This document shows positions 3,400-36,283 of a stretch of DNA of 64,000 nucleotides, in pieces; position 1 is the first letter of the stretch; each line of letters starts with the position of its first letter. The DNA is from Alphaproteobacteria bacterium (GTDB taxonomy: Bacteria; Pseudomonadota; Alphaproteobacteria; SP197): the NCBI GenBank assembly GCA_965213815.1, contig OZ243917.1, forward strand, positions 1,882,832 through 1,946,831, in the 5' to 3' direction. The translations under genes and the position numbers were made by a program. The notes below the pieces were generated by a model. The model saw only the letters and a program-made list of their open reading frames with translations. It had not been told where the DNA came from and did not search any database.

Positions 3400-4443
3400 A
3401 TGAAGATCCTCTTTCTCGACGATTCCTTTGCCTTCGACGGCTACTCGCCGCGTAACGATCCCATGGGCGGTGCGCAGAAGGGCCTGGTCTTTCTCGCCGA
3501 GGCCCTGGCCCGGCGTCACCACGAGGTCACTGTGATGAACCGCTGTGATGGCGCCCGTACCATCCGCGGTGTTTTCTGGCGCAACATCGGCGAAACAGAG
3601 GCACCCGACGCCGATCTGGTCGTGGCGCTGAGGCAGGCGCGGCTTCTGGAGAAGGTTCCCTCCGGCCGGTGCCGTATGCTCTGGGTGGCCGACCAGCTCG
3701 ACGATGACGGCGTGGCGGCGCTCGCATCGAAGACCGAAACCTGCCGGATCGACCGTCTCGTTTTCATGGGCGAGCACCATGTGTCGTCATGGAGCGCCGA
3801 TCAAGGTCTGGTTGCGGTCATGCGTCCGGGCATTGCTCCGGCCTACCTTGTGGGCGAGCCCCCTCAGGGGTACTGGCCGCCCAGGGCGGTGACCACCATG
3901 CATCCGCGCGGCGGCCTCGCCTGGCTCCTTGACCTGTGGGTCGACAAGATCCATCCCATGATTGACGAGGCGGAGCTTCATGTCTTTTCCGGATTGCTCG
4001 CCAGGGCCGCCTCGGGCAAGACGGTGGAGGGCGATCTCACATCGCTGTGGCGCCGCATTGAGGGTCTCGCCGGCTCCGGCGTGGTGGTCCGGCGGCCGCT
4101 TGCGGATGCCGATATGGCCCGGGAGTTCCGCCATGCCCGTGTCCATCTTCATCCCGGCTCGTTGCGTGAGGCCTACGTGGCGACGCTTGCCGAGTCCCAG
4201 GCAACCGGTTGTCCGGGTGTGGCGTTCAGGGCCGGAGCGGCCGTGGAGCGTATCAAGGACAGCAGGACGGGGTTCCTGGTGCCCGATGACGCCGCCTTTG
4301 CCAATTGCGCCATCCTCTGCCTCAAGGAGGAACTCGTCTATCGCGGCCGTTCGAAAGACGCCGCCGATCTGCAGCGGGACAGGTCCTGGGACGACGCGGC
4401 GGGCGAACTCGAAACGCTTCACGACGCCGTGGTGAGCCAGTGA
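3400..4443 (+). CDS. GT1/GT4-family glycosyltransferase (probable LPS core)
   Basis: 347 aa. Typical GT-B C-terminal domain (…GCPGVAFRAGAAVERIKDSRTGFLVPDD…). Overlaps the next heptosyltransferase gene (GTGA). Confidence 0.8.
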   Translation: MKILFLDDSFAFDGYSPRNDPMGGAQKGLVFLAEALARRHHEVTVMNRCDGARTIRGVFWRNIGETEAPDADLVVALRQARLLEKVPSGRCRMLWVADQLDDDGVAALASKTETCRIDRLVFMGEHHVSSWSADQGLVAVMRPGIAPAYLVGEPPQGYWPPRAVTTMHPRGGLAWLLDLWVDKIHPMIDEAELHVFSGLLARAASGKTVEGDLTSLWRRIEGLAGSGVVVRRPLADADMAREFRHARVHLHPGSLREAYVATLAESQATGCPGVAFRAGAAVERIKDSRTGFLVPDDAAFANCAILCLKEELVYRGRSKDAADLQRDRSWDDAAGELETLHDAVVSQ

Positions 4444-5327
4444 AATTGCTCTTCATCACGTCGACCCGGCTGGGTGATGCGGTTCTTTCGACGGGACTGC
4501 TCGATCATCTGGTGGCTGCTGACGGGGTCGAGACGACCGTCGTGTGCGGGCCGGTGGCTGCGGAACTCTTCGCATGCCTGCCCGGCCTGGAGCGGGTGAT
4601 CGTTCTCGACAAGGAGCCGCGCAAGGGGCACTGGTTCGGCCTGTGGCGGCAGACAGTGGGCACCTGGTGGGATCTCGTGGTCGACCTCAGAGCGTCGGCG
4701 GTGCCCTTCATTCTCCTGCGGAACATGCGACGCACCAAGTTCAGGGGCGGAGACGGTCATCGCGTCGAGAGCCTGGCGCGCTGGTATGGCGTCGAACCAG
4801 TGCCGCCGCCAAGGGTATGGACCAACGGGGTTCACCGCAGCCATGCCGCTCGACTTGTGCCCCCGGGAGGCCCGGTGCTCGGACTCGCTCCGACCGCCAG
4901 CGGTCGCGGGAAGATCTGGCCCTGGAAGAACTACGTCGCGCTGGCACGACGGCTGACGTCCGCCGATGGCGCGCTGGCGGGCGGGCGCGTCGTCATCATG
5001 GGAGGACCAGCCGAACATGAACTCACCGGACCCGTCGTCGAGGCGCTGCCGTGTGAGACCACCTCGGATCTGACCGGCAGTGAACATCTCCTCACCCTCG
5101 CCGAAGTGATGCGGCGATGCACCGTCGTGATCGCCAACGACAGCGGACTGATGCATCTCGCGGCCGCCAGCGGAGCACCGACGGTCGGCCTCTTCGGCCC
5201 GAGTCCGGTAGAAACCTATGCTCCCTGGGGCCAACACGCGGCGGTGGTCACAAGCGCAACCGGGTCCATGAACGACATCACCGTCGATGCCGTGGAACAC
5301 ACTGTCGGCGAACTTCTCGACCGCTGA
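4440..5327 (+). CDS. GT9-family ADP-heptose:LPS heptosyltransferase
   Basis: GTG start overlapping the upstream stop. Motifs …LGLAPTASGRGKIWP… and DSGLMHLAAASGAPTVGLFGPS are characteristic of RfaC/RfaF-like GT9. Confidence 0.8.
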   Translation: MKLLFITSTRLGDAVLSTGLLDHLVAADGVETTVVCGPVAAELFACLPGLERVIVLDKEPRKGHWFGLWRQTVGTWWDLVVDLRASAVPFILLRNMRRTKFRGGDGHRVESLARWYGVEPVPPPRVWTNGVHRSHAARLVPPGGPVLGLAPTASGRGKIWPWKNYVALARRLTSADGALAGGRVVIMGGPAEHELTGPVVEALPCETTSDLTGSEHLLTLAEVMRRCTVVIANDSGLMHLAAASGAPTVGLFGPSPVETYAPWGQHAAVVTSATGSMNDITVDAVEHTVGELLDR

Positions 5328-5638
5328 TCCACCGTTCAAGGCATGTTGGCCACCTCCGCATTCCGGTTCGAGCCGGGCATTCAGGATATTCTCTCGTTTC
5401 GGGCATGGCAGGCGCTCGATCTGACGGTCTCACCGGGCTGCTTCGTCTACCCCGTACCGCGGGTGAAGGACCGCTTCCCGACCTTCGTTGCGATGTTCGG
5501 GGCGAATGCGTCAGGCAAGACGAACGTCATGCGGTCCTCGCAGGCGTCGCCGGCGAAGACACGACCGTCGATGTCACAGTTCCGCGGAGAGGGTCAGGAT
5601 GAGGAGCCGACCGAGTTCGAAATGGAAACGATGTTCGT

Positions 5639-6388
5639 TCATGTTGTCAGGGGCAGGGTCTGGCCCTGCCGGGCGAGGGCGGCGCCGGGGGCGAGACGCT
5701 GCAGCGCCTCTTCGCGTATGGCGAGGTCGTCATCCGAAAGACCCGGGGGGTGATCTGTGATCACCAGTCGCCTGGCGGGTGAGTTGCGCGCGATGAGGTC
5801 CATGCTGTCGCCGGCGCCGCCGGCGATCAGCAGGCCGGCACCGCGGGCGAAGTCGCTGATCACGTCCGCGTCGTCATGGCAGGTCATGCCCGCCGCCCAG
5901 GCGAGCGACCAGTCATCGCCGTCGAAACGGTACGCCGTTCCAGGCATCGTCCCGCCGAGGGCCATGGTGGTGACCGTGAGACCTGGAGCGAGCACAACGG
6001 GTGTGCCCGCCTCAAGGTCATGGAACGTGACGGTGGCGTTGAAGATATCGGGGGAGACAGGGAACACGGGATCGGACATCAGCCGCCGGAGTTCCGATCT
6101 GACGACCCCACCGGCGCTGTAGAGCGTGAAGCGGTTGTCGGCCGAAAAGGCCGGGGCGAAGAACGGGATTCCGATGGTGCGAACGACGGTGGGCCGGCTG
6201 AAGAAGACATGCCCCTCCAGGGGGCCCTTGCCGAGCAGCGACAGTCCGCAATCGCGCATGCCGGAGCCGGCATCGAGAATCAGCAGCGTGTCGCCCGCGG
6301 CGACAGCGATACACGTCGAGTGACCGCCGAATGTCCGGGTCGCCGGCCCGTCCTGGGGAGCGGAGCGGACGCCGTGGAAGGTCACCAC
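5639..6388 (-). CDS. MBL-fold metallo-hydrolase (start uncertain)
   Basis: …VTFHGVRS…GGHSTCIAVAAGDTLLILDAGSG… beta-lactamase-fold N-terminus. The ORF's 5' extension overlaps the UGSC gene, so a GTG near 6388 is the likely start. Confidence 0.5.
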   Translation of the reverse strand: MVTFHGVRSAPQDGPATRTFGGHSTCIAVAAGDTLLILDAGSGMRDCGLSLLGKGPLEGHVFFSRPTVVRTIGIPFFAPAFSADNRFTLYSAGGVVRSELRRLMSDPVFPVSPDIFNATVTFHDLEAGTPVVLAPGLTVTTMALGGTMPGTAYRFDGDDWSLAWAAGMTCHDDADVISDFARGAGLLIAGGAGDSMDLIARNSPARRLVITDHPPGLSDDDLAIREEALQRLAPGAALARQGQTLPLTT

Positions 6389-6410
6389 CGGCCCGCTGGC
6401 CGGCTGCCGG

Positions 6411-6929
6411 TCAGGTTCGGGTGAGGGCGCCAACGACGGCGTCGACGATGTCTTCGGCGCGGCCACGCAGTTCAGCCTCGTTCAGGGGCTGAACCGGATG
6501 ACGGACATACACCACGGCCGGGTCAAAGCCATGAAGGCCGCTCCACGACGCGACCCCGCTTGCGAATTCCTCGGATACCAGCGCCACTGCCGGCGTTTCC
6601 ATGCGATCGATGTCCAGCATGTCCTGCAGACTGCACGACGTACAGGAACCTCAATCGGCAAGACCTTCAACCACGGCATCGCACTCGGCGGTGACCCGGT
6701 CGATCACCTCCGGGGGCGCCGGCTTGGTGAATGTCGGCTTGGCGTAGCGACCGGTGCGGATACCGCGCTCGCCAAGCAGCCTTTCAAGGTGATCGAGAAC
6801 GACATCGCCTTGGCGTTTGCCGATGTCGAGCAGACCGACGGTGAGACCCTCGAGGGACCGGTGTCCGGCCACACGCTGGCGCCCCGATGTGGCCCGCGCC
6901 ACGGTGGGATCAAGAAGAATCGTGGTCAA
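6411..6929 (-). CDS. UGSC-family selenoprotein; the in-frame TGA at 6651-6653 is read as selenocysteine
   Basis: Two ORFs (6651..6980 and 6411..6620) lie in the same frame, separated only by a TGA. The codons after it give G-S-C-T-S-C-S, forming the U-G-S-C motif. A TTG start at 6929 overlaps the upstream gene's TGA (TTGA). An AAGGGAGGTG Shine-Dalgarno sits 5 nt upstream. Confidence 0.7.
6590..6650 (-). ncRNA. candidate bacterial SECIS element immediately 3' of the Sec-UGA
   Basis: The mRNA after the UGA reads GGUUCCUGUACGUCGUGCAGUCUGCAGGACAUGCUGGACAUCGAUCGCAUGG. It contains short inverted repeats (CCUG…CAGG; CAUGC…GCAUG) that could form the required hairpin. No folding was done. Confidence 0.3.
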
Positions 6930-8272
6930 GGCTCCACCTCCCTTGTGACGGGTTGGCTCCCCCTGGGGCCGCTTCCCCATCCCTGGATGATAGTGGAAAA
7001 GAGTCCGGCATGGCTACCGGCGCGTGTGACGAGAAGATCGCCGGGCTCCAGCATGGGCGTGGCATCATGAAGGGCGGCTTCGACTCGCGCCCGGTTCCAG
7101 CCTGATTCCCGGAAGATGCGCCAGAACTCGCCGGCGATGACCAGCAGAGCCCCGTTGCCACCCGGGCACATCGCCTCGAGTGATCGTGCCAGGCTGGCCA
7201 CGAGATCCTCCGCCGTACGCGCTCTGTCGTCGTCCATGATCGTGGTGCCACAGAACCCGAAGACGGTGACAGCCGACTGTCCCTCGCCCCGTCCCCTTGA
7301 GGCGGCCAGGGACTGCCAGAGCGGGTCACTCTCGTCCTCGGCAAAACACAGGCCGTGCTTGCCGGGGTGGCCCAGGGTCGAGCGATCGACGCCCCCCGGC
7401 CGGGCGCCGCCTGCATTCATGGCGATGAGGACAAGCGCGCGTGCAATGGTGGCGTTGGCCCGGGTCCCGTGGCCGAGGGCGTTGGTTCCGCTGTTGAGAC
7501 CGATCCGCCGGGCGATGGGTCCGTTGACGATGACGGCGACACCCGCCCCCATGGTGGTCGACAACAGACCCTGCCAGGCGAAGTCGGGATCGAGCGCCGC
7601 GTCCAGCGCGGCCAGCACCACGGGAAAATACGCGGGACGGCACCCTGCCATGACCGCGTTGATGGCGGCTTTCTCCACCGTCAGTTCCGCCCCCGCCGGA
7701 GGAATCGAGCCCAGGACATGATTGTGCGCCAGGGTGCATTCGCGCAGCATGGCGAGGACGCGCCCCGGCGTCGGCGGCACCACGGGAAGGCCATCGGACC
7801 ATCCGCGGACGTCCATGATCTCGAAGGAATCTTCGGGAAACCGCACGGTGAGGGTCGCGGCATCGAGACCGGTTTCGCCGTGGCGCGCCCTGAGTTCCTC
7901 TGCCCAGCCCGCTTCCTCGCTCAGGGACCCGCATCCCGGTCGTTCGTCCGGCAGACCGGGGCCAAGGTCGTCAAGGCCGGCAAGAGAGCACCACTCCTGC
8001 CTCGACCAGCCGATAGTCCGCGCCGTCTCCACGCCGTCGGTGAAGCGCACCAGCGTTGGCACGATGGAGACGGCGAGGCGATAAGAGACCTCAAGGTCGC
8101 GGTCATCGCGAACCTGCAGGCGTTCGGGAAAGTCGGGGTTGTCCTGCGAGTAGATGGCGGCCATGACGCCGCGTGCCTCGAGTTCCGCGGCCACCGGCGC
8201 AATCAGCCGGCAAGTCGGGCAGTCCTCGCGAAGAACCAGGACAAGGCCGTCTTCGGGAATATCACTCGACAT
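6926..8272 (-). CDS. thioredoxin-fold (CPTC) domain fused to a ~330-aa uncharacterised C-terminal domain
   Basis: 448 aa. N-terminal …VLREDCPTCRLIAPV… is a thioredoxin-like CxxC. The rest has no motif I recognise. The stop overlaps the TTG start of the UGSC selenoprotein gene. Confidence 0.6.
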   Translation of the reverse strand: MSSDIPEDGLVLVLREDCPTCRLIAPVAAELEARGVMAAIYSQDNPDFPERLQVRDDRDLEVSYRLAVSIVPTLVRFTDGVETARTIGWSRQEWCSLAGLDDLGPGLPDERPGCGSLSEEAGWAEELRARHGETGLDAATLTVRFPEDSFEIMDVRGWSDGLPVVPPTPGRVLAMLRECTLAHNHVLGSIPPAGAELTVEKAAINAVMAGCRPAYFPVVLAALDAALDPDFAWQGLLSTTMGAGVAVIVNGPIARRIGLNSGTNALGHGTRANATIARALVLIAMNAGGARPGGVDRSTLGHPGKHGLCFAEDESDPLWQSLAASRGRGEGQSAVTVFGFCGTTIMDDDRARTAEDLVASLARSLEAMCPGGNGALLVIAGEFWRIFRESGWNRARVEAALHDATPMLEPGDLLVTRAGSHAGLFSTIIQGWGSGPRGSQPVTREVEP

Positions 8273-8328
8273 GGCGTTTCCAGTCCGTGCTACGCTTCAG
8301 GCTATGCGTATTGATGAGGGAAGAGGGC

Positions 8329-8679
8329 ATGAGCGAAATCCAGCGTTTGCAACCGGGTGAACTCTACAGCGGGGCCGTCATCCATGGCGACACGGTCTGG
8401 CTCTCCGGCAAGGTGGCTTCCGATTCCACGGGCGATGTCCGCCAGCAGACCCGGGATATCCTGGACGAGATCGACTCCACGCTCGAGGCATGCGGCACGT
8501 CACGATCACGGCTTCTCTCGGTGCAGATCTGGCTTGCCGACATCGCCGACTGGGCAGCCATGAACGAGGTCTACACCGCCTGGGTCGATCCCGGCAACAA
8601 ACCGTGCCGCGCCACGGTCGAGGCGGCCCTCGCACATCCCGACCTGCTGGTGGAAATCATGTGCGTGGCGGCCCGATAG
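8329..8679 (+). CDS. ridA: RidA/YjgF-family reactive-intermediate deaminase
   Basis: MSEIQRL… and …ARATVEAALAHPDLLVEIMCVA C-terminus typical of RidA. Internal ATG with GAGGG Shine-Dalgarno. Confidence 0.85.
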   Translation: MSEIQRLQPGELYSGAVIHGDTVWLSGKVASDSTGDVRQQTRDILDEIDSTLEACGTSRSRLLSVQIWLADIADWAAMNEVYTAWVDPGNKPCRATVEAALAHPDLLVEIMCVAAR

Positions 8680-8680
8680 A

Positions 8681-9418
8681 TCAGCGGCACGCCGTCGCTC
8701 CCCCGTCGATGGAGAGAAGCGCTCCGGTCATGAACTTCTGATCGGGATCGGCGAGGAAGCAGATGGCGTCGGCAATCTCGTCCGGCGAGGCGATGGTCTT
8801 CATCGGCGAGAACTCGGCAATGCCGCGCAGGGTTTCCGCATCATCGCCGGCGCCGAGCATATCGGTCATGACCGCTCCCGGACACACCGCATTGACCCTG
8901 ATGGCGGGCGCAAGATCGTGGGCGAGGGCCCGCGTCATGTTCACGACCGCCCCCTTGGAGGTGCAGTAGAGAGCACTTTCGTGATTGCCTGAGAGGCCGG
9001 ATTCCGATGCCGTCATGACGATGGTCCCGTTGTTGCGGCGCAAGGCCGGGATCGCCGCCTGGCTGCAGAAGAAGCAGCCCTTGACGTTGATGTCCATCAG
9101 CCAGGAGAAGGTGTCGTCACTCACCTCCTCGACAGGCCCCCCGACATAGACTCCGGCGTTGTTGACGAGAACATCGAGACCGCCCAGCCCGTTGATTGCC
9201 GCATTGACAACCTCGTGGCAGGCGCCGCCGCTGCCGAGGTCGCCGGGCGCAGCGACCAGGCCCTCACCGCCGAGGCCGGCGATGGCGGCTGCGACATCGT
9301 CGGCCCTGCGACCGTTGATGGCAACGCGGGCACCCCGTGTCAGGAAGGCTCGCGCCGTGGCGAGGCCGATACCCCTTGTCGAACCGGTGACGAGGACGCG
9401 TTTTCCTTTGAAAGTCAT
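8681..9418 (-). CDS. SDR-family oxidoreductase
   Basis: N-terminal Rossmann motif VLVTGSTRGIG, an NNAG motif and a Y-x3-K catalytic region (YCTSKGAV). Confidence 0.85.
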   Translation of the reverse strand: MTFKGKRVLVTGSTRGIGLATARAFLTRGARVAINGRRADDVAAAIAGLGGEGLVAAPGDLGSGGACHEVVNAAINGLGGLDVLVNNAGVYVGGPVEEVSDDTFSWLMDINVKGCFFCSQAAIPALRRNNGTIVMTASESGLSGNHESALYCTSKGAVVNMTRALAHDLAPAIRVNAVCPGAVMTDMLGAGDDAETLRGIAEFSPMKTIASPDEIADAICFLADPDQKFMTGALLSIDGGATACR

Positions 9419-9981
9419 GTCTGTGCCTCCAGCTGTTGCCGCCAGGCGTCAAGTTCGTGGACGTACCATGCGGCGTTCTTGCGGATACCGTCGATCTCAT
9501 CCGCATGGAGGTCGCGCAGCTTTTTTGCCGGAACGCCGCCCCACAGTTCCCCGCTCGGCACCACCTTGCCGGGCGCCACCAGGGCACCGGCAGCGACCTG
9601 GCTCTCCCGTTCGAGCCGGGCTCCGTCGAGCACGATGGCGCCGGAACCCACCAGGGTGTCGTCTTCCAGGGTACAGGCGTGCAGATGGACCATGTGACCG
9701 ATCGTCACGCCGCGGCCGATGATGGTCGGAATCTCGACGGAAACATGGACGACGCACCCGTCCTGGATGTTGGTGCCGGCGCCGATGCGCACAGGCCCGT
9801 CGTCGCCGCGGATCACGGCATTGAACCAGGCACTGGCACCCGCTTCCATCATCACATCACCGATGATGGCCGCTCCGGGAAGAACGAGGCCTCTCTTGTC
9901 GATGGTCGGCCACACGCCTTGCCAGGGCATCACGTGCGCCCGGGGGAAGACGCACGAGCGGTAGCGATCCGCCATCGTCAT
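9415..9981 (-). CDS. gamma-class carbonic anhydrase / hexapeptide-repeat (YrdA/PaaY) protein
   Basis: Left-handed beta-helix hexapeptide repeats (…IGAGTNIQDGCVVH…IGRGVTIGHMVHLH…). Stop overlaps the SDR start. Confidence 0.85.
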   Translation of the reverse strand: MTMADRYRSCVFPRAHVMPWQGVWPTIDKRGLVLPGAAIIGDVMMEAGASAWFNAVIRGDDGPVRIGAGTNIQDGCVVHVSVEIPTIIGRGVTIGHMVHLHACTLEDDTLVGSGAIVLDGARLERESQVAAGALVAPGKVVPSGELWGGVPAKKLRDLHADEIDGIRKNAAWYVHELDAWRQQLEAQT

Positions 9982-10015
9982 GGAGCGTTGCCGGTCATGC
10001 GGCCTGAGTGAGGCA

Positions 10016-10090
10016 TGGTGGGCGCGGCTGGGTTCGAACCAGCGACCCCTGCCGTGTGAAGACAGTGCTCTTCCGCTGAGCTACGCGCCC
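10016..10090 (-). tRNA. tRNA-Val (anticodon CAC)
   Basis: Reverse complement reads GGGCGCGUAGCUCAGCGGAAGAGCACUGUCUUCACACGGCAGGGGUCGCUGGUUCGAACCCAGCCGCGCCCACCA. It has a 7-bp acceptor stem, a D-arm, a CUGUC/GGCAG anticodon stem with loop UUCACAC, a GGUUCGAAUCC-type T-loop and an encoded CCA. Confidence 0.9.
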
Positions 10091-10173
10091 TCGTGGGTGA
10101 AGGGTGATACGGCGCAGCCGAATGAACTGTCAAGGTTGCCCGCCAAAGCCAGGAGAGAACCCCGGCGCGAGGC

Positions 10174-11040
10174 CTACATCAAGTCCGCGACAGTGGCGAC
10201 AATGCGCCGGTCGTCACGAACGATGTCGGCGCCGCCGGGTCGCGGAACGACGGTGTAGCAGGAATCGACGGCGTGGAGCACGCCCGTCAGACACAGCATG
10301 CCATCCTCATCAATCCTGTAGGTGCCGGTTTCCTCCGTCGCCAGGGAAGCCGCCGTCTCTCCCCGGCGGACCGTGACGGTGTCGCCATCGGCGTCAAACG
10401 AGGCGCTGTAGAAGGGCTCGCCGAAATGGAACCGCAGTTCACCGGAAAGCGTACGCCCCGGAATGATCGCCTGCAGAACGGCCTGTGACAGTGTCGGGTG
10501 CCCCTTGGGAACCTGGAAGGCCTCCATCGCCATGTAGCGATTGACAATCTCGTTTCGGTGGTTGGTCTGGTACCAGAGGTCGCCGTCCTGCCAGACGCCG
10601 AAACAGTCGCTGTCCTGTCCCCGGGTCAGACAGAGCGTGTCCTCGACAATGTCCCATCCACCCGACCAGGTCTGGCCGGTGTCGTTGCGTCCGGAAAATC
10701 CGCCGTCATCGGCAAAGGCCTCGTCGTACCAGTGGAAAAGCTGGGTATCCTCGTTGTAGGCATAACCGAAGCGCCAGGTGCCGTTGTGGGCGGCCAGCAG
10801 GTTGTCCCCGGTGACGGCCACCGCACGTTCGGGCAGGTCCTCGAGATTGTTGTCACCAAAGAGTTCCAGGGAAATGGGCCGTGCCACCAGCATGACGATG
10901 GTGCCTCCGATTCCCACTGCCGGGATAAGGAGAGCGCCAAAGATGTGCCATCTCCCCTGCATGGCACCGCGGATCGACAGCACAAGACAGGCGATGGCGC
11001 ATATTCCGAAAGTGATGAGTACGAGTATTCCTATCCACAT
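10174..11040 (-). CDS. hypothetical membrane-anchored protein
   Basis: 288 aa. Two N-terminal hydrophobic helices (MWIGILVLITFGICAIACLVL…; …FGALLIPAVGIGGTIVMLV) followed by an Asp/Gly/Trp-rich soluble domain. No recognised family. Confidence 0.45.
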   Translation of the reverse strand: MWIGILVLITFGICAIACLVLSIRGAMQGRWHIFGALLIPAVGIGGTIVMLVARPISLELFGDNNLEDLPERAVAVTGDNLLAAHNGTWRFGYAYNEDTQLFHWYDEAFADDGGFSGRNDTGQTWSGGWDIVEDTLCLTRGQDSDCFGVWQDGDLWYQTNHRNEIVNRYMAMEAFQVPKGHPTLSQAVLQAIIPGRTLSGELRFHFGEPFYSASFDADGDTVTVRRGETAASLATEETGTYRIDEDGMLCLTGVLHAVDSCYTVVPRPGGADIVRDDRRIVATVADLM

Positions 11041-32673: not shown

Positions 32674-32723
32674 TTTCTGAAGGGGTCGGTATCATTCCGG
32701 CCCCTTCGTTGCCGGGGCGCGCC

Positions 32724-33569
32724 ATGGCATGTGAACTTGCCCTTCTGGCTGGTGATGCCGGGGTGGGCGACATTATCCGGGCGGTCGACCGCGACGGGGC
32801 CGCCATCGTCACCGATTTCGTCGATGCCGACTGGCTCGACCGCTTCAACCGAGCCATCGACCCTGCGGTCGCGAATGCGCGGCGGGTGCCCTTCGACAAT
32901 ACCGCCATCGATTCCTTCCTCGGTGACCACACGGTGCGCCTGCACGGTCTGCTGGCGAAGGCGCCGTCCTTTGTCGACCTGATGATCGAGCCGCGCCTTC
33001 TCGCCATGATGGATCACTGGCTGCTTCCCCGCTGTTCGAGTTATCTCTTCAGCGCCGGTGAGCTCATCGAGATCAGGGGAGGAGAGACGGCCCAGCGGTT
33101 TCATGTCGACGACGGGTCGTGGCCGGTCTGGCCGCGCCGGGGAGCAGGTCTTCTGCAGGTGAACGTCATGGTGGCGGCCACGGACTTCACGTGCCGCAAC
33201 GGTGCGACACTCGTGGCCCCGGGCAGCCACAGGTGGGAGAGCGGGAGGTTGCCCGGCGAGGACGAAATTGCGCACGCCGTGATGCCCCGGGGCAGCATCG
33301 CCATCATCAGGGGCGATTGCCTGCATGCCGGAGGCACCAACACGGACGGCACCCGCCGCCGTGCCCTGTCGCTGTCCTGGTGCCTTGGGTGGCTGCGAAC
33401 CGTCGAAAACACCTGGCTCACCCTTCCCCTCGACGTGGTGAGCCGACTGCCTCCGAGAGCGCGGGAACTGCTGGGCTACGAGATCTACGACGGGTCGGCC
33501 GACGAGGTACGAAGCGGATTTCTCGGCTACTACGAGATGGGCAGTCCCCGGACGCTGTTCGACGACTGA
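32724..33569 (+). CDS. PhyH-family Fe(II)/2-oxoglutarate dioxygenase
   Basis: …AQRFHVDDG… (HxD) and …APGSHRW…RGD… typical of phytanoyl-CoA dioxygenase-like enzymes. Its 3' end is duplicated at ~35322..35475. Confidence 0.75.
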   Translation: MACELALLAGDAGVGDIIRAVDRDGAAIVTDFVDADWLDRFNRAIDPAVANARRVPFDNTAIDSFLGDHTVRLHGLLAKAPSFVDLMIEPRLLAMMDHWLLPRCSSYLFSAGELIEIRGGETAQRFHVDDGSWPVWPRRGAGLLQVNVMVAATDFTCRNGATLVAPGSHRWESGRLPGEDEIAHAVMPRGSIAIIRGDCLHAGGTNTDGTRRRALSLSWCLGWLRTVENTWLTLPLDVVSRLPPRARELLGYEIYDGSADEVRSGFLGYYEMGSPRTLFDD

Positions 33570-33580
33570 ACGTCGAGGTG
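33376..33580. repeat. copy A of an imperfect direct repeat: 3' end of phyH, stop codon and ~12 bp downstream (intact)
   Basis: …ACACCTGGCTCACCCTTCCCCTCGACGTGGTGAGCCGACTGCC…CTGTTCGACGACTGAACGTCGAGG. It aligns with 35322..35480 at ~80% identity with one ~35-bp gap. Confidence 0.75.
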
Positions 33581-34043
33581 GAACTCGGATACGGTGTGAG
33601 CAACAGAGGAACTGCTTGTCCGGGACCAACGATCAGGACGATCCTGGAGAACCGGGTAGGGTATCGGGTTGGTCATCTTGTTGATGACATGCCGGGCGGT
33701 CGTCTTGGCCAGGACGATGGACTTGCAGGAGCCCGTCGCCATCCTTGCCCAAAGCCGCTCGAACGTACCGCCGTTGGACGGGATATCGACAACACCAAAC
33801 CACACGTTCGGCAGCCTCTGTCTGAAAGAAGAAGCGTCGTGTCCCGAACTCCCCAGGGTGTTCCAGCAGACGCTTCGTGACCCGCGACACGCTTGCCGAC
33901 CCGCCAGGATCGTCGTCAGTCCTGGAGTGCGGCGAGACGATGATCTGCCCGGCGGGCTTCGGCCGTCCGCAGGATCAAGAAGCCGCGTCCTCCTGTCGTA
34001 GTGCCACTCCCATGGCGAGCAGACGATCAACTGGTCGACGGGG

Positions 34044-34388
34044 TCACGACCTCGCCCCTTGCGGGACCAGATGCTCAAGTTGTGGGATGAGAAGGGGAAT
34101 GTCCTGATCCACTGTGTTCCATACGATATCCATGTCGATGTCATCGTAACCGTGGATCATGCGATTGCGCATTCCCCTGACTTGCGCCCATGGAATCTCG
34201 GGATGCCTTTCGCAGAATGTCGGCGACAACCGTCCGGTTGCCTCGCCCATGACTTCGATGCGGCGAATTACGGAATCCTGCAACTGCGGATTTGCAAGAA
34301 ACCCGCAACGCGAAACGCCCTCAATGTAGGACAGAATTGCACGAGCCGATCCGAGTATGTCGAGAAGGAGTGCGGAATCACGGTCCAT
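34044..34388 (-). CDS. hepT: HepT-family toxin (DUF86, nucleotidyltransferase-substrate-binding / RNase)
   Basis: Conserved Rx4HxY motif (RNRMIHGY). Overlaps the MNT gene. Confidence 0.8.
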   Translation of the reverse strand: MDRDSALLLDILGSARAILSYIEGVSRCGFLANPQLQDSVIRRIEVMGEATGRLSPTFCERHPEIPWAQVRGMRNRMIHGYDDIDMDIVWNTVDQDIPLLIPQLEHLVPQGARS

Positions 34389-34695
34389 AGACGAGTTCCG
34401 CCGATTGCAGGATTGCTTTGCGTCGCAGGTAGTTGGGGCTCATCTCGACACTGCGCCAACTGACAAGATCGACATCCCGCCCGAAGATGTCCTTCAGCTC
34501 CTCCTCCATCCGATCCATGTCGAACAGCGTATGGCGCGCCGCTTCGTCGAACCCGGCCAGAATGTCGATGTCGCTATTGGGGCCAAAGTCATCCCGAAGC
34601 ACCGAGCCGAACAGGGCCAGCTTCACGATGCCCCAGCGTTCACAGAATAGGGTGAGCTTGTCGGTCGGTATGGCAATGTGCGCGGTCACGACCAA
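34378..34695 (-). CDS. mnt: MNT-family nucleotidyltransferase antitoxin
   Basis: …LFGSVLRDDFGPNSDIDIL… minimal nucleotidyltransferase motif (GSx9-13DxD). Immediately upstream of, and overlapping, hepT. Confidence 0.8.
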   Translation of the reverse strand: MVVTAHIAIPTDKLTLFCERWGIVKLALFGSVLRDDFGPNSDIDILAGFDEAARHTLFDMDRMEEELKDIFGRDVDLVSWRSVEMSPNYLRRKAILQSAELVYGP

Positions 34696-35102
34696 AGGGC
34701 CCGATTGGCGCTTGCGTCAAGTCCTGAGGTTCTCGATTCTCGGAATGGCTTGATTTGCCGGCGCTTCTCGTCGCCCGGTCTGGCATGGATGTCGCCTGTC
34801 ATGAATGCGCGAACACGCTTCGGCCCGTACTCTTCGATGAGAAACCCGAGTCCGGAGATGGTGGCTCGCCGTAAGCGGCGCCGGGGACTTTCCCTGGAGA
34901 GGGTGCCCGGCGCCGGCAGGGCAACAGTAGATACGACATCCAGGTGGTTCCCAGACTTCTCGATGACTGTGCTGCCCTGGTTCGGCGGCTCGTGCAGAAC
35001 CACTGGCCCGAGTTCCAGTCTCTCCAGACACGCTGTGACCGCTTTCCTCGTCGCTTCGTCATGACCGTGCACGGCGAAGACCTTGTTGCCCCAACGCGAC
35101 AT
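34686..35102 (-). CDS. COG4271 TIR-like nucleotide-binding protein (Cap12/Pycsar-effector-like domain); start uncertain, possibly a remnant
   Basis: …NKVFAVHGHDEATRKAVTACLERLELGPVVLHEPPNQGSTVIEKSGNHLDVV… matches the KVFIVHGHDEE…LG.EPIILHEQPN.GRTIIEKFE consensus. The in-frame 5' extension runs into the degenerate phyH repeat. Confidence 0.5.
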   Translation of the reverse strand: MSRWGNKVFAVHGHDEATRKAVTACLERLELGPVVLHEPPNQGSTVIEKSGNHLDVVSTVALPAPGTLSRESPRRRLRRATISGLGFLIEEYGPKRVRAFMTGDIHARPGDEKRRQIKPFRESRTSGLDASANRALWS

Positions 35103-35321
35103 GGCAGGGTCATCGTCGCAGGTATCGGGATTTCGTTCCGCTTCCTGCCAACCCTCTTCGAATTCCTCGATCCAAGAATGAAGCAACGCGATTGCCCTGT
35201 CCACGCTGGTTCCCGCACCTTGACGATAGCCAACGATCAAATTGTGATCAACGGGAGAGAACGCTCGGCACCCAATGCCCTGCGCCTTGATTCCGCCGGT
35301 CCTGGTGCTGTTGGATGACTG

Positions 35322-35480
35322 TGCCCGGTCCAGGGACACCTGCCTCACCCTTCCCTGCGACGTGGTGGGCAGATTGCCCCGGAGAGCGTGGCAACTGCTG
35401 GGCGACGAGATCTGCGACGGATCAACTGCGAGATGGGGAGCCCCCGAGTCCTGTTCGAAGACTGAACTTCGGGGCGGGCT
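35322..35480. repeat. copy B (degenerate) of the phyH 3'-end repeat
   Basis: CCTCACCCTTCCCTGCGACGTGGTGGGCAGATTGCCCCGGAGAGCGTGGCAACTGCTGGGCGACGAGATCTGCGACGG…CTGTTCGAAGACTGAACTTCGGGG. Translates to LTLPCDVVGRLPRRAWQLLGDEICDGS versus LTLPLDVVSRLPPRARELLGYEIYDGS in copy A. Confidence 0.75.
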
Positions 35481-36283
35481 CACGGCGGCGTGGCGAAGGT
35501 CGCCCGGATGACCTCGGTTTCGCACGGGACCGCGAGGAGGCCGTCCTCACCGACGAAGGGGGCGAGCGCCCGGTCGATGGTCGCCAGGATGACGCTCCGG
35601 TCATGGTGGACCTCGGCGGCGCGAACGTGGGAGGTCGAACGGACGTAGCCGAGCCACTCGTTCCTGGTGCGCCTCCAGATCCACGGGAAGCGCCGGGTGC
35701 GGACAGTCCGGACGCACGCGAGGGTGGCCAGATCGTCGGCGCCGATGTGATCGCGGTAGGTGCGCCGGTAACCCGGAGAGATGTTCTCGAGAGCCGTTTC
35801 GTAGGCTTGCGAGATGGCGGAATCCCTGATCCTGTTATTGTTGAGGATGGCGAGGGAGCCGCCCGGGCGGAGAATGCGGCCGCACTCGGCATGGAAGAGG
35901 TCGCGGTCGAGCCAGTGAGCCGCCTGTGCGACAGTGACGAGATCGAACGTGCCGGGTGCCAGCGGCAGCCTCTCTGCCCTGCCGCCGAGCCAGTGGATGT
36001 CGCCGGTTGTTTCTGCGGCGGTCTCGAGCATGTCGCGGGCCGGTTCGATACCGATGACGAGGGAGTCGGGAAAGCGTGACCGCAACTGGCGCGTCAGGAT
36101 TCCGGTGCCGCTGGCAACGTCGGCGATACGCCGGGGATGGTGCGCCAGCCAGTCGATCGCCTCCGGTGGATAGCAGGGACGGAAGCGGTCGTAATCCGAC
36201 GCCAGGCCTTCGAAGATGGTACCGGGGTCGGCCCAGCGGGACGACCAGGGGTGTCCTGTGGCCGGGCGTTCAGCGGACCCCAT
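35480..36283 (-). CDS. class I SAM-dependent methyltransferase (Tam/type-11-like)
   Basis: …IADVASGTGILTRQL… (motif I) and …FDLVTVAQAAHWLD… Start 13 nt downstream of the fdsA stop, same strand, so it is the distal gene of the fds operon. Confidence 0.7.
   Translation of the reverse strand: MGSAERPATGHPWSSRWADPGTIFEGLASDYDRFRPCYPPEAIDWLAHHPRRIADVASGTGILTRQLRSRFPDSLVIGIEPARDMLETAAETTGDIHWLGGRAERLPLAPGTFDLVTVAQAAHWLDRDLFHAECGRILRPGGSLAILNNNRIRDSAISQAYETALENISPGYRRTYRDHIGADDLATLACVRTVRTRRFPWIWRRTRNEWLGYVRSTSHVRAAEVHHDRSVILATIDRALAPFVGEDGLLAVPCETEVIRATFATPP

What the first reader, a model, noticed from the sequence alone, without database searches (positions are those of the whole stretch)
34044..35102. 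HepT/MNT module adjacent to a stand-alone TIR-like nucleotide-binding gene
COG4271 TIR-like domains occur as effectors or sensors in cyclic-nucleotide-based defence (Pycsar/CBASS Cap12). Here the gene stands next to a HepT/MNT nucleotidyltransferase toxin-antitoxin pair, with no cyclase present. The long in-frame 5' extension (LIVGYRQGAGTSVDRAIALLHSWIEEFEEGWQEAERN…) may be a real N-terminal domain or read-through into the repeat. This is either a degraded defence locus or an undescribed minimal pairing.
Basis: inference. Interest (0 to 1): 0.55.

Follow-up and report, generated by a model that had tools for sequence, protein, structure and literature searches.

The report
Decayed TIR-like gene beside HepT/MntA
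This is a 1.6-kb leftover of a mobile defence island: the HepT/MntA toxin-antitoxin pair is still intact, the TIR-like gene next to it is a dead, truncated copy, and the same three genes form an intact, conserved operon in other bacteria.

Summary
On the minus strand lie HepT (34044-34388), MntA (34378-34689/34695) and a PF10137 TIR-like ORF (34686 upward). No cyclase is nearby.

In this window the locus is degraded. Window 35251-33620 is colinear (78% nt) with an Alphaproteobacteria MAG island (L003) ordered Type III methylase, TIR-like, MntA, HepT, BPTD_3080 restriction enzyme.
- The methylase and the first ~60 TIR-like codons are gone.
- The restriction gene survives only as a frameshifted 5' stub.

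The TIR-like gene evolves neutrally:
- dN/dS is 0.8-0.9, against about 0.2 for MntA and HepT.
- Differences fall evenly on codon positions (51/53/47).
- It keeps 34 of 82 family-conserved residues and lacks the ELG glutamate.
- Two in-frame deletions are present.

The 5' extension is real homology only up to about 35251. Beyond that it reads through junk and the reverse complement of a duplicated PhyH 3' end.

MntA and HepT keep their catalytic motifs and are under purifying selection.

The pairing itself recurs. TIR-like, MntA and HepT form a tight operon, usually with 4-nt overlaps, in at least 14 further loci (HepT degraded or missing in six, MntA truncated in one type). All three genes have dN/dS of 0.13-0.20 in intact copies. 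The operon stands alone or sits inside Type III R-M operons. I found no description of it.

The parts
33409..33581 (+). Copy 1 of a ~170-bp direct repeat. It is the functional 3' end (and stop at 33567-33569) of the PhyH-family dioxygenase gene 32709-33569, and it marks the left edge of the inserted island.
   Evidence: the repeat finder D1/D3, pairwise alignment A5, PF05721 hit.
33620..34043 (-). Frameshifted, truncated 5' remnant (about the first 170-185 codons) of a BPTD_3080-family Type III-like restriction endonuclease (res) gene. It is a pseudogene.
   Evidence: blastn colinearity with L003 7587-7969. tblastn of L003 res residues 6-170 onto window 34039-33665, E 3e-17, with a scrambled middle part. 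Homologous peptides lie in two different frames. L003 res scores 1100 bits on NF046055. The window ORF hits the same model only weakly.
34044..34388 (-). hepT: HEPN-family RNase toxin of a type VII toxin-antitoxin pair (114 aa). It appears intact.
   Evidence: PF01934 E 2.5e-24. R74-x4-H79-x-Y81 motif in the sequence and in alignment A3. 82-86% aa identity to L001/L003, dN/dS 0.20-0.21. Differences are biased to third codon positions, 8/10/23.
34378..34695 (-). mntA: minimal nucleotidyltransferase antitoxin. It is 105 aa from TTG 34695. The likely true start is GTG 34689, giving 103 aa and a GTGA overlap with the upstream stop. It appears intact.
   Evidence: PF01909 E 4e-14 and PF18765. PADLOC PDC-S09 E 5e-20. 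GSx10DxD motif in the sequence. 87-89% identity to L001/L003, dN/dS 0.15-0.19. Codon-position differences 10/3/19.
34686..35251 (-). Pseudogene of a PDC-S35 / PF10137 (Cap12/PycTIR-type) TIR-like protein. It retains helix 4 of the N-terminal helical domain, the linker and a degenerate TIR-like domain. It lacks the first ~60 codons and any homologous start codon.
   Evidence: PF10137 only 34.8 bits against 138.5 for the intact P0003. PDC-S35 84.8 bits covering profile 78-227/264 against 272-303 bits end to end for intact relatives. Colinear with L003 6177-6771. dN/dS 0.79-0.88, with 64 unique aa changes against 9 and 12 in L001 and L003. Differences 51/53/47 over codon positions. Keeps 34/82 conserved and 11/25 invariant columns. 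E196->G, TPDD lost, deletions of 3 and 10 codons.
35252..35335 (.). Junction sequence of unknown origin between the island fragment and the orphan repeat copy. It lies in frame with the TIR-like ORF but has no homology to the family.
   Evidence: Alignment A4 with L001 and L003: similarity starts only at about window 35251. blastn end points.
35336..35477 (+). Copy 2 of the direct repeat. It is an orphan, decayed copy of the PhyH 3' end (31-nt deletion, own TGA at 35463-35465) and marks the right edge of the island. Read in reverse, it supplies the first ~60 codons of the mechanical 279-aa ORF.
   Evidence: the repeat finder D1-D3, alignment A5, ORF list.

Best explanation
Window ~33620-35251 (minus strand) is a relic of a horizontally acquired defence island. 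The intact form of that island is Type III methylase (mod), TIR-like protein, MntA, HepT, BPTD_3080-family restriction enzyme (res). It sits at the 3' end of a PhyH dioxygenase gene, between two diverged copies of that gene's last ~170 bp.

Deletions removed mod, the first ~60 codons of the TIR-like gene and most of res.

The part that still works is the type VII toxin-antitoxin pair. From established knowledge of HepT/MntA systems, HepT is an Rx4H RNase, and MntA keeps it inactive by AMPylating the tyrosine of the Rx4HxY motif with ATP. I infer that a cell losing the pair would be poisoned by unmodified HepT. That would explain why this fragment survived while its neighbours decayed.

The TIR-like ORF upstream is a pseudogene drifting neutrally. 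Its frame stays open only because stop codons are rare at this G+C content. Its long 5' extension is partly a remnant of the ancestral N-terminal domain and partly read-through into junk and the reversed PhyH repeat.

Shown:
- gene identities
- colinearity with intact islands
- truncation of the TIR-like gene
- neutral evolution of the TIR-like gene against constrained evolution of MntA and HepT
- recurrence of the three-gene operon elsewhere

Inferred:
- activity of the TA pair
- the addiction-based persistence of the fragment
- the history of insertion and deletion
For: (1) Colinearity.
- Window 35247-33620 aligns to L003 6177-7969 at 78% nt.
- It also aligns to L001 8029-9443.
- L003 carries mod (PADLOC MTase_III, 487 bits), TIR-like, MNT, HepT and res (NF046055, 1100 bits).

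(2) The res remnant.
- It is frameshifted and covers only residues 6-170.
- No mod remnant exists anywhere in the window.

(3) Relaxed selection on the TIR-like gene only.
- Against L003, dN/dS is 0.88 (TIR), 0.19 (MNT) and 0.21 (HepT).
- Against L001 it is 0.79, 0.15 and 0.20.
- Intact trios L083-L085 give 0.20, 0.18 and 0.13.
- Unique amino-acid changes in window/L001/L003 are 64/9/12 (TIR), 5/4/6 (MNT) and 16/3/2 (HepT).
- Differences by codon position are 51/53/47 for TIR (p 0.83 against uniform), 10/3/19 for MNT and 8/10/23 for HepT.

(4) Loss of family signatures.
- The window copy keeps 34/82 columns that are >=90% conserved and 11/25 invariant columns. The poorest of 103 real members keeps 67.
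- Glu196 of the (F/L)ELG motif is Gly here. That Glu aligns with the FEFG Glu of Cap12.
- The TPDD and PSDYDG motifs are hit by in-frame deletions.
- Pfam scores 34.8 bits against 138.5 for an intact relative.

(5) The open frame needs no selection. A neutral simulation gives P(no stop) of 0.07-0.24.

(6) Foreign origin.
- G+C is 0.56-0.62 inside the fragment and 0.63-0.69 outside.
- The flanking direct repeat is the PhyH 3' end.

(7) MntA and HepT keep the GSx10DxD and Rx4HxY motifs (sequence; A3).
Against: - The TIR-like frame has no stop codon in 279 codons and keeps the GTGA overlap with mntA. A residual role, for example as a translated leader coupled to antitoxin translation, is not excluded. 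The simulated P of 0.07-0.24 is low-ish but not significant.
- Pairwise dN/dS near 0.9 is higher than a simple model predicts (one neutral branch plus one constrained branch). NG86 is crude at this G+C and divergence.
- Expression of mntA-hepT was not shown. No sigma-70-like promoter was found, which says little for a high-G+C organism.
- NCBIfam equivalog models for HepT and MntA score 40 bits, below their 60-bit cut-offs. Assignment to the experimentally studied subfamily therefore rests on Pfam domains and motifs.
- The insertion/deletion history is a reconstruction. No empty site or intact island from a close relative of this genome was available.
Confidence: 0.85

Rival explanations
1. 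The window carries a working three-gene (or 'minimal') defence module. A short, N-terminally trimmed TIR-like protein, starting at TTG ~35233 or ATG 35102, acts together with HepT/MntA.
For: - The frame is open.
- The GTGA overlap with mntA is retained.
- L001 carries a similarly 5'-trimmed copy (P0002, 210 aa) whose TIR domain is still well conserved.
- The trio is a real conserved operon elsewhere.
Against: - dN/dS is 0.8-0.9 and substitutions are spread evenly over codon positions.
- 48 of 82 conserved positions are lost, including the ELG Glu and the TPDD motif. There is also a 10-codon deletion in the PSDYDG region.
- The Pfam score is a quarter of that of an intact relative.
- Three of the four N-domain helices are missing.
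Confidence: 0.05
2. The adjacency of the TIR-like gene and HepT/MntA is only defence-island clutter. They are two autonomous modules that happen to travel together, with no functional link even in intact relatives.
For: - Each part commonly stands alone. 0 of the 80 closest metagenomic HepT relatives have a TIR-like neighbour.
- Only 4 of the 80 best genome loci of the TIR-like family carry MNT, and 0 of 79 viral loci do.
- Each part decays independently. The TIR-like gene is dead here. HepT is degraded or lost in L002, L005, L016, L086, L171 and L172.
- L044 has mod, TIR-like and res without the TA pair.
Against: - 9 of 9 sampled close TIR-like relatives have MNT immediately downstream, in the same order and strand, nearly always with a 4-nt overlap.
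- The linkage persists while MNT diverges to about 42% identity.
- The linkage involves at least three MNT-HepT lineages that are interleaved with stand-alone pairs.
- All three genes are equally constrained in intact trios.
Confidence: 0.45
3. The locus is a remnant of a cyclic-nucleotide signalling system (CBASS or Pycsar) that has lost its cyclase.
For: - The TIR-like domain belongs to PF10137.
- Its nearest solved structures and sequence relatives are Cap12 (TIR-STING) and PycTIR.
Against: - No cyclase lies in the window flanks.
- No cyclase appears in any of the gene tables of the trio loci.
- The intact ancestor-like island L003 has mod and res at the flanks, not a cyclase.
- The N-terminal domain is a ~90-residue helical domain with no match to STING, SAVED or cNMP-binding families.
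- NCBIfam Cap12 models score 38 bits against a cut-off of 450.
Confidence: 0.02

Closest known systems
Type VII toxin-antitoxin system HepT/MntA (HEPN-MNT; e.g. Shewanella oneidensis SO_3166/SO_3165)
   Same: - The MNT gene lies upstream of and overlaps a DUF86/HepT gene.
- GSx10DxD is present in MNT and Rx4HxY in HepT.
- Both proteins are small (103-105 and 114 aa).
- Both are under purifying selection.
- The MNT-upstream dyad and the predicted nucleotidylation of the conserved Tyr are described in PMC3710099.
   Different: - The scores fall below the NCBIfam equivalog cut-offs (40 against 60 bits).
- In this clade the pair is preceded by a TIR-like gene in the same operon. This is not part of the described two-gene system.
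- Toxicity and AMPylation were not tested.
PADLOC phage-defence candidate PDC-S35 (single-gene candidate from 'guilt-by-embedding', bioRxiv 10.1101/2024.01.29.577857), a helical N-domain plus a PF10137 TIR-like domain
   Same: - Intact trio proteins match model PDLC05005 end to end at 272-303 bits.
- Like the PDCs, they are found embedded in R-M operons.
   Different: - The window copy matches only profile positions 78-227 of 264, at 84.8 bits, and is a pseudogene.
- PDC-S35 is listed as a stand-alone gene. Here a sub-clade is fixed upstream of MntA-HepT, whose MNT matches another separate candidate, PDC-S09.
- No experimental test of PDC-S35 was found.
Cap12 (TIR-STING, CBASS) and PycTIR (Pycsar) NADase effectors
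   Same: - The TIR-like fold is the same. Foldseek's top hits are SfSTING 7un8 (E 1.8e-5) and TIR-STING 9lmq.
- The profile matches Cap12 and PycTIR chains across the R-x-NV-x-FE-x-G ... PSD motif.
   Different: - There is no STING or cNMP-binding sensor domain.
- There is no cyclase partner.
- NCBIfam Cap12 scores 38 bits against a cut-off of 450.
- The window copy lacks the motif's Glu.
HEPN-family RNases embedded in restriction-modification operons (e.g. PrrC in Type I R-M), the 'multi-pronged defence' theme of PMC3710099
   Same: An RNase toxin module is nested between the modification and restriction genes of an R-M system in L003, L083/L084 and L172. The window's ancestor was probably built the same way.
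   Different: - Here the nested unit is a complete MNT-HepT TA pair plus a TIR-like gene.
- The host system is a Type III-like BPTD_3080 system rather than Type I.
- No evidence exists that the R-M proteins control the toxin.

Membership tests
Type VII TA, HepT toxin | HepT/DUF86 HEPN domain above the Pfam gathering score | tested here: met
   PF01934, 85.7 bits against a cut-off of 23.5, covering profile 1-119/120.
Type VII TA, HepT toxin | Catalytic Rx4H motif followed by the AMPylated Tyr (Rx4HxY) | tested here: met
   R74-NRMI-H79-G-Y81 in the window protein. G72, R74 and Y81 are invariant in alignment A3.
Type VII TA, HepT toxin | NCBIfam equivalog NF047751 at or above its cut-off | tested here: not met
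   40.2 bits against a cut-off of 60, and only a 31-residue stretch matched. The protein is a HepT-family member by Pfam and motif, but not by this narrow equivalog model.
Type VII TA, MntA antitoxin | Pol-beta-type minimal nucleotidyltransferase domain with GSx9-10DxD | tested here: met
   PF01909, 53.1 bits (cut-off 21), and PF18765, 40.9 bits. G30-S31-x10-D42-I-D44 is visible in the sequence.
Type VII TA, MntA antitoxin | Antitoxin gene immediately upstream of the toxin gene, overlapping it, on the same strand | tested here: met
   mntA 34378-34695 and hepT 34044-34388, both on the minus strand, overlap by 11 nt.
Type VII TA (whole system) | HepT toxicity neutralised by MntA-dependent AMPylation | not testable with these tools
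   This needs expression and mass spectrometry. The only indirect support is dN/dS of about 0.2 for both genes.
PDC-S35 / PF10137 TIR-like protein | Full-length match: N-terminal helical domain plus TIR-like domain | tested here: not met
   The window ORF covers PDC-S35 profile positions 78-227 of 264. Intact relatives cover 4-262. Helices 1-3 of the N-domain are absent.
PDC-S35 / PF10137 TIR-like protein | Conserved (F/L)ELG glutamate. It is the presumed catalytic Glu of TIR NADases; that assignment comes from my own knowledge of TIR enzymes and was not verified here. | tested here: not met
   E196 is 99% conserved in 103 homologues and is Gly in the window. It aligns with the FEFG Glu of Cap12 chains.
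PDC-S35 / PF10137 TIR-like protein | Purifying selection, as in functional members | tested here: not met
   dN/dS is 0.79-0.88 against 0.15-0.20 in intact trios. Codon-position differences are 51/53/47.
CBASS / Pycsar | A CD-NTase or pyrimidine cyclase gene in the operon | tested here: not met
   None among the ORFs from 28 to 39 kb of the window, and none in the gene tables of the trio loci.
CBASS / Pycsar | A cyclic-nucleotide sensor domain (STING, SAVED or cNMP-binding) fused to the TIR effector | tested here: not met
   The N-domain of intact relatives is a ~90-residue, four-helix domain. It has no Pfam hit and no credible relative in the PDB sequence search (weak, unrelated hits only).
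Type III-like R-M (BPTD_3080 family) | Complete res and mod genes | tested here: not met
   Only res residues ~6-170 remain, and they are frameshifted. No mod-like sequence exists anywhere in the 64-kb window.

The most novel reading that the evidence does not exclude
In intact relatives, TIR-like, MntA and HepT form a genuine three-component defence system, not two neighbours. The PDC-S35-type TIR-like protein, with its uncharacterised helical N-domain, would sense infection. By consuming NAD+ or nucleotides, or by acting directly on MntA or HepT, it would release the AMPylation-silenced HepT RNase. The unit acts as a second line nested inside Type III R-M operons. The window would then hold a decayed example in which only the TA core persists.
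Probability: 0.25. Interest if true: 0.6.

Novelty: new variant of a known kind. Interest (0 to 1): 0.35.

Why it matters
For this genome the result is mundane. It is an annotation correction: the 'nucleotide-binding protein' ORF is a pseudogene, next to a res pseudogene, and one intact type VII TA pair marks a dead defence island. It is also a clean example of a toxin-antitoxin pair outliving the defence genes it arrived with.

Beyond this genome, the survey turned up a conserved operon that I could not find described. A sub-clade of the untested PDC-S35 TIR-like candidates is fixed upstream of MntA-HepT and is often nested in Type III R-M systems. If the three genes depend on each other, this would link TIR-type NAD+/nucleotide chemistry to the ATP-dependent AMPylation switch of type VII TA systems. 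It would also give a testable third component for HepT/MntA.

Tried and rejected
1. Is the N-terminal helical domain of the TIR-like family HEPN-like, which could bind MntA? No.
- hhalign against the HepT alignment gave probability 0.1%.
- No meaningful Pfam family was found.
- No credible PDB sequence relative was found.

2. Is the TIR-like frame kept open by selection, for example through translational coupling to mntA? This is not needed. A neutral simulation gives P(no stop) of 0.07-0.24.

3. Do the window and L001 share one ancestral deletion? No.
- The window does not share L001's upstream junction sequence.
- L001 groups with the intact L003, not with the window.
- The two truncations are therefore independent, although their end points lie about 20-25 nt apart.

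4. Is the trio phage-borne? Among 79 IMG/VR loci with TIR-like relatives, none has MNT or HepT nearby.

5. The promoter/terminator scan of 33400-35700 was uninformative: 0 promoter-like sites and 1 terminator-like site, both at chance level.

6. The exact-sequence look-up of the window's called protein P0001 gave no contig record. The cluster look-up gave no names or accessions. The source organism was therefore not identified.

7. Literature searches found no description of a TIR-like/MNT/HepT operon.
- Terms tried: 'PDC-S35', 'COG4271', 'HepT+MntA+TIR', 'SfSTING+E84A' and 'HEPN+MNT+TIR domain+operon'.
- The TIR-discovery preprint 10.64898/2025.12.03.692087 does not mention HEPN or MNT partners.
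- The library is limited to open-access papers and bioRxiv, so absence is not proof.
Full report
**1. What is at the coordinates**

Three overlapping genes lie on the minus strand.
- A HepT/DUF86 HEPN protein, 34044-34388, 114 aa. PF01934, E 2.5e-24.
- A minimal nucleotidyltransferase, 34378-34695. PF01909, E 4e-14.
- An ORF listed mechanically as 34686-35525 (279 aa). Residues 148-247 match PF10137, 'CAP12/Pycsar effector protein, TIR domain', at only 34.8 bits.

HepT carries R74-x4-H79-x-Y81, and MNT carries G30-S31-x10-D42-x-D44.

The TIR-like stop (TGA, 34688-34686) overlaps a GTG at 34689-34687. This corresponds to the start used by the closest MNT homologues (103 aa), giving a GTGA junction. 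MNT and HepT overlap by 11 nt.

The surrounding genes are metabolic. They are a dimethylformamidase-like protein, a cupin, two methyltransferases, a solute-binding protein, a PhyH dioxygenase and a formate-dehydrogenase-like molybdoenzyme. There is no cyclase.

**2. The repeat and the island**

The last ~170 bp of the PhyH gene (33409-33581) recur at 35336-35477. The second copy is 79-85% identical, has a 31-nt deletion and carries its own TGA.

The ~1.75 kb between the two copies has lower G+C (0.56-0.62) than the flanks (0.63-0.69). The first ~60 codons of the mechanical 279-aa ORF are the reverse complement of this orphan repeat copy.

**3. The fragment is a piece of a larger island**

A search with the TIR-like translation found two relatives, P0002 and P0003. 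Both are followed by MNT and HepT.

A genome scan then found L003, an Alphaproteobacteria MAG. There, window 35247-33620 aligns colinearly to positions 6177-7969 at 78% nt. L003 reads as follows:
- Type III methylase, 3431-6001 (PADLOC MTase_III, 487 bits)
- TIR-like, 5998-6771
- MNT
- HepT
- BPTD_3080-family restriction endonuclease, 7416-10232 (NF046055, 1100 bits against a cut-off of 800)

Compared with L003, the window lacks mod and the first ~60 codons of the TIR-like gene. Of res it retains only residues ~6-170, with frameshifts. No mod-like sequence exists anywhere in the window.

A second relative, L001, is the same island with independent deletions of mod plus the TIR-like 5' end and of most of res.

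**4. The TIR-like gene here is a pseudogene**

Pairwise Nei-Gojobori dN/dS values:

| Comparison | TIR-like | MNT | HepT |
|---|---|---|---|
| Window vs L003 | 0.88 | 0.19 | 0.21 |
| Window vs L001 | 0.79 | 0.15 | 0.20 |
| Intact trios, L083-L085 | 0.20 | 0.18 | 0.13 |

Other evidence points the same way.
- Lineage-unique amino-acid changes (window/L001/L003) are 64/9/12 for TIR-like, 5/4/6 for MNT and 16/3/2 for HepT.
- Nucleotide differences fall evenly on codon positions in the TIR-like gene (51/53/47, p 0.83). They are third-position-biased in MNT (10/3/19) and HepT (8/10/23).
- Against an alignment of 103 homologues, the window copy keeps 34 of 82 columns that are >=90% conserved and 11 of 25 invariant ones. 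The poorest real member keeps 67.
- Lost residues include T171, D173, D174, G176, A189, N192 and E196. E196 is the Glu of the (F/L)ELG motif and aligns with the FEFG Glu of Cap12.
- In-frame deletions of 3 and 10 codons hit the TPDD and PSDYDG regions.
- An intact relative scores 138.5 bits on PF10137 and 272 bits end to end on PADLOC PDC-S35. The window scores 34.8 and 84.8 bits, the latter over profile 78-227/264.
- The open frame is not evidence of function. Simulated neutral change to the observed divergence leaves no stop in 7-24% of trials.

35102-35251 ('...LIVGYRQGAGTSVDRAIALLHSWIEEFEEGWQEAERN...') is a true remnant of helix 4 of the N-terminal domain plus the linker. Everything upstream of about 35251 is read-through.

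**5. MntA-HepT look alive**

Both proteins keep their motifs. They are 82-89% identical to their L001 and L003 counterparts, and their dN/dS is about 0.2.

From established knowledge of type VII TA systems, MntA AMPylates the Tyr of Rx4HxY and so silences the HepT RNase. This was predicted in PMC3710099. The experimental demonstration is from my own knowledge of the Shewanella and Aphanizomenon systems and was not re-read here.

I infer that post-segregational killing explains why this 0.65-kb core survived. The mechanism itself was not tested.

**6. Is the pairing recurrent?**

Yes, in a specific clade.

A profile search found more than 6,000 family members. I sampled nine of the closest ones for genomic context: P0002, P0003, P0006, P0012, P0016, P0039, P0042, P0084 and P0104.
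- All nine have MNT immediately downstream, nearly always with a 4-nt overlap.
- HepT follows in all but the P0016 loci. It is full-length in most, but truncated in L171 and fragmented in L172.
- Its catalytic His is lost in L002.
- In the P0016 loci (L086-L088), MNT is cut to 76 aa and HepT is absent.

Among the 80 best species-representative genome loci, four carry MNT: L003, L004, L005 and L016. These include Alphaproteobacteria and Gemmatimonadota. No other partner recurs apart from one ~106-aa upstream ORF family.

The converse does not hold.
- None of the 80 closest metagenomic HepT relatives has a TIR-like neighbour, although all with enough upstream sequence to judge (77 of 80) have MNT.
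- None of 79 viral-contig TIR-like loci has MNT or HepT nearby.

The trio's MNT-HepT pairs fall into at least three lineages that are interleaved with stand-alone pairs on a neighbour-joining tree. Their TIR-like partners remain 55-78% identical to each other. The linkage has therefore either been formed more than once or has been lost very often.

The trio occurs in two contexts.
- Alone among housekeeping genes: L085, L089, L170, L171.
- Nested between mod and res: L003, L083, L084, L172.

L044 has mod, TIR-like and res without the TA pair.

**7. What the intact TIR-like protein looks like**

AlphaFold2 with 103 sequences gives mean pLDDT 81.5. The model has three parts:
- a four-helix N-domain, residues 6-91
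- a disordered linker, residues 96-110
- a TIR-like domain, residues 114-258

Foldseek places the TIR-like domain closest to the TIR of SfSTING (7un8, E 1.8e-5) and TIR-STING (9lmq). The profile also hits Cap12 and PycTIR chains.

The N-domain has no detectable relative, and it is not HEPN-like.

**8. Comparison with the known, and novelty**

- HepT/MntA here is an ordinary member of a known TA type.
- The TIR-like family equals PADLOC's PDC-S35, and the MNT hits PDC-S09.
- PADLOC's PDC candidates are untested and were proposed because such genes sit embedded in defence operons (bioRxiv 10.1101/2024.01.29.577857). I could not find PDC-S35 or PDC-S09 named in that preprint's text or supplements.
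- HEPN toxins nested in R-M operons are a described theme (PMC3710099).
- A conserved TIR-like/MntA/HepT operon was not found in the searchable literature. I rate it a new variant of known kinds, and the window holds only a decayed copy.

**9. Mechanism of the intact trio (inference)**

The evidence fits best with two self-sufficient modules that are repeatedly kept together: a sensor-plus-NADase-type TIR-like effector and a type VII TA. Two roles for the TA are plausible.
- It stabilises the cassette.
- It serves as a back-up abortive-infection arm of the host R-M system.

Independent decay of either part argues against strict interdependence (this window; L002, L005, L016, L086, L171, L172). 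The fixed order, the 4-nt overlaps and equal constraint across roughly 40-60% divergence argue for more than chance adjacency.

I give about 0.25 to true functional coupling, in which TIR-like activity or sensing releases HepT.

**10. Verdict**

- The locus is a degraded relic with a live TA core.
- The pairing is real elsewhere and apparently undescribed.
- Interest is modest for this window and moderate for the operon family.

Noticed in passing
window 33409-33581 and 35336-35477: The 3' end of the PhyH-family dioxygenase gene is duplicated as a direct repeat (79-85% identity; copy 2 has a 31-nt deletion). The repeat brackets the foreign fragment. This looks like the attL/attR-type scar of an element that integrated into the gene's 3' end and supplied a replacement end. 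No integrase is left in the interval.
   Followed up: partly
L001 8006-8009 and window ~35251 (both relative to L003 6153-6177): Two independent deletions, one in L001 and one in the window, removed mod plus the 5' end of the TIR-like gene. Their end points lie only ~20-25 nt apart. One possibility is that a promoter or other element needed for antitoxin expression sits just downstream, so larger deletions would be lethal. This is speculative.
   Followed up: partly
L002 9051-9410: The HepT of this otherwise intact trio has lost the His of Rx4H (GLRDGLSLAY). Its dN/dS against L083 is 0.62. Here the toxin decays while the TIR-like gene and MNT stay constrained.
   Followed up: partly
L005 7395-7813 and L016 7029-7447 (minus strand): In these Gemmatimonadota loci MNT follows the TIR-like gene but HepT is missing. 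A small PIN/VapC-like ORF ('MVVLDTSALVFW...') and a preceding ~76-aa ORF lie on the opposite strand instead. In L016 the TIR-like gene itself is split by a frameshift (5471-6061 and 5974-6435).
   Followed up: no
L026 354-2295 and L036 3453-6474: Two Candidatus Poribacteria loci carry three tandem TIR-like paralogues in a row. In L026 they lie next to a mod-like methylase of the same family as L003's.
   Followed up: no
L042, L046, L049, L057, L059, L063, L068 (ORF ending at the TIR-like start, e.g. L057 5225-5545): A ~106-aa ORF family sits directly upstream of, and abuts, the TIR-like gene in seven genome loci that lack MNT-HepT. It is either an alternative partner or a split-off N-terminal domain of another PF10137 sub-family.
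   Followed up: no
L044 3454-9534: A Longimicrobiales MAG has mod, TIR-like and res of the same BPTD_3080-type system (72% nt to L003) without MNT-HepT. The TIR-like gene can therefore be nested in this R-M type on its own.
   Followed up: partly
L083 7434-7709 and 7812-10658; L083 3424-6001: In this trio-bearing R-M operon both res (91 aa plus 948 aa) and mod (498 aa plus 374 aa) are called as two ORFs each. The cause may be frameshifts or phase variation typical of Type III systems.
   Followed up: no
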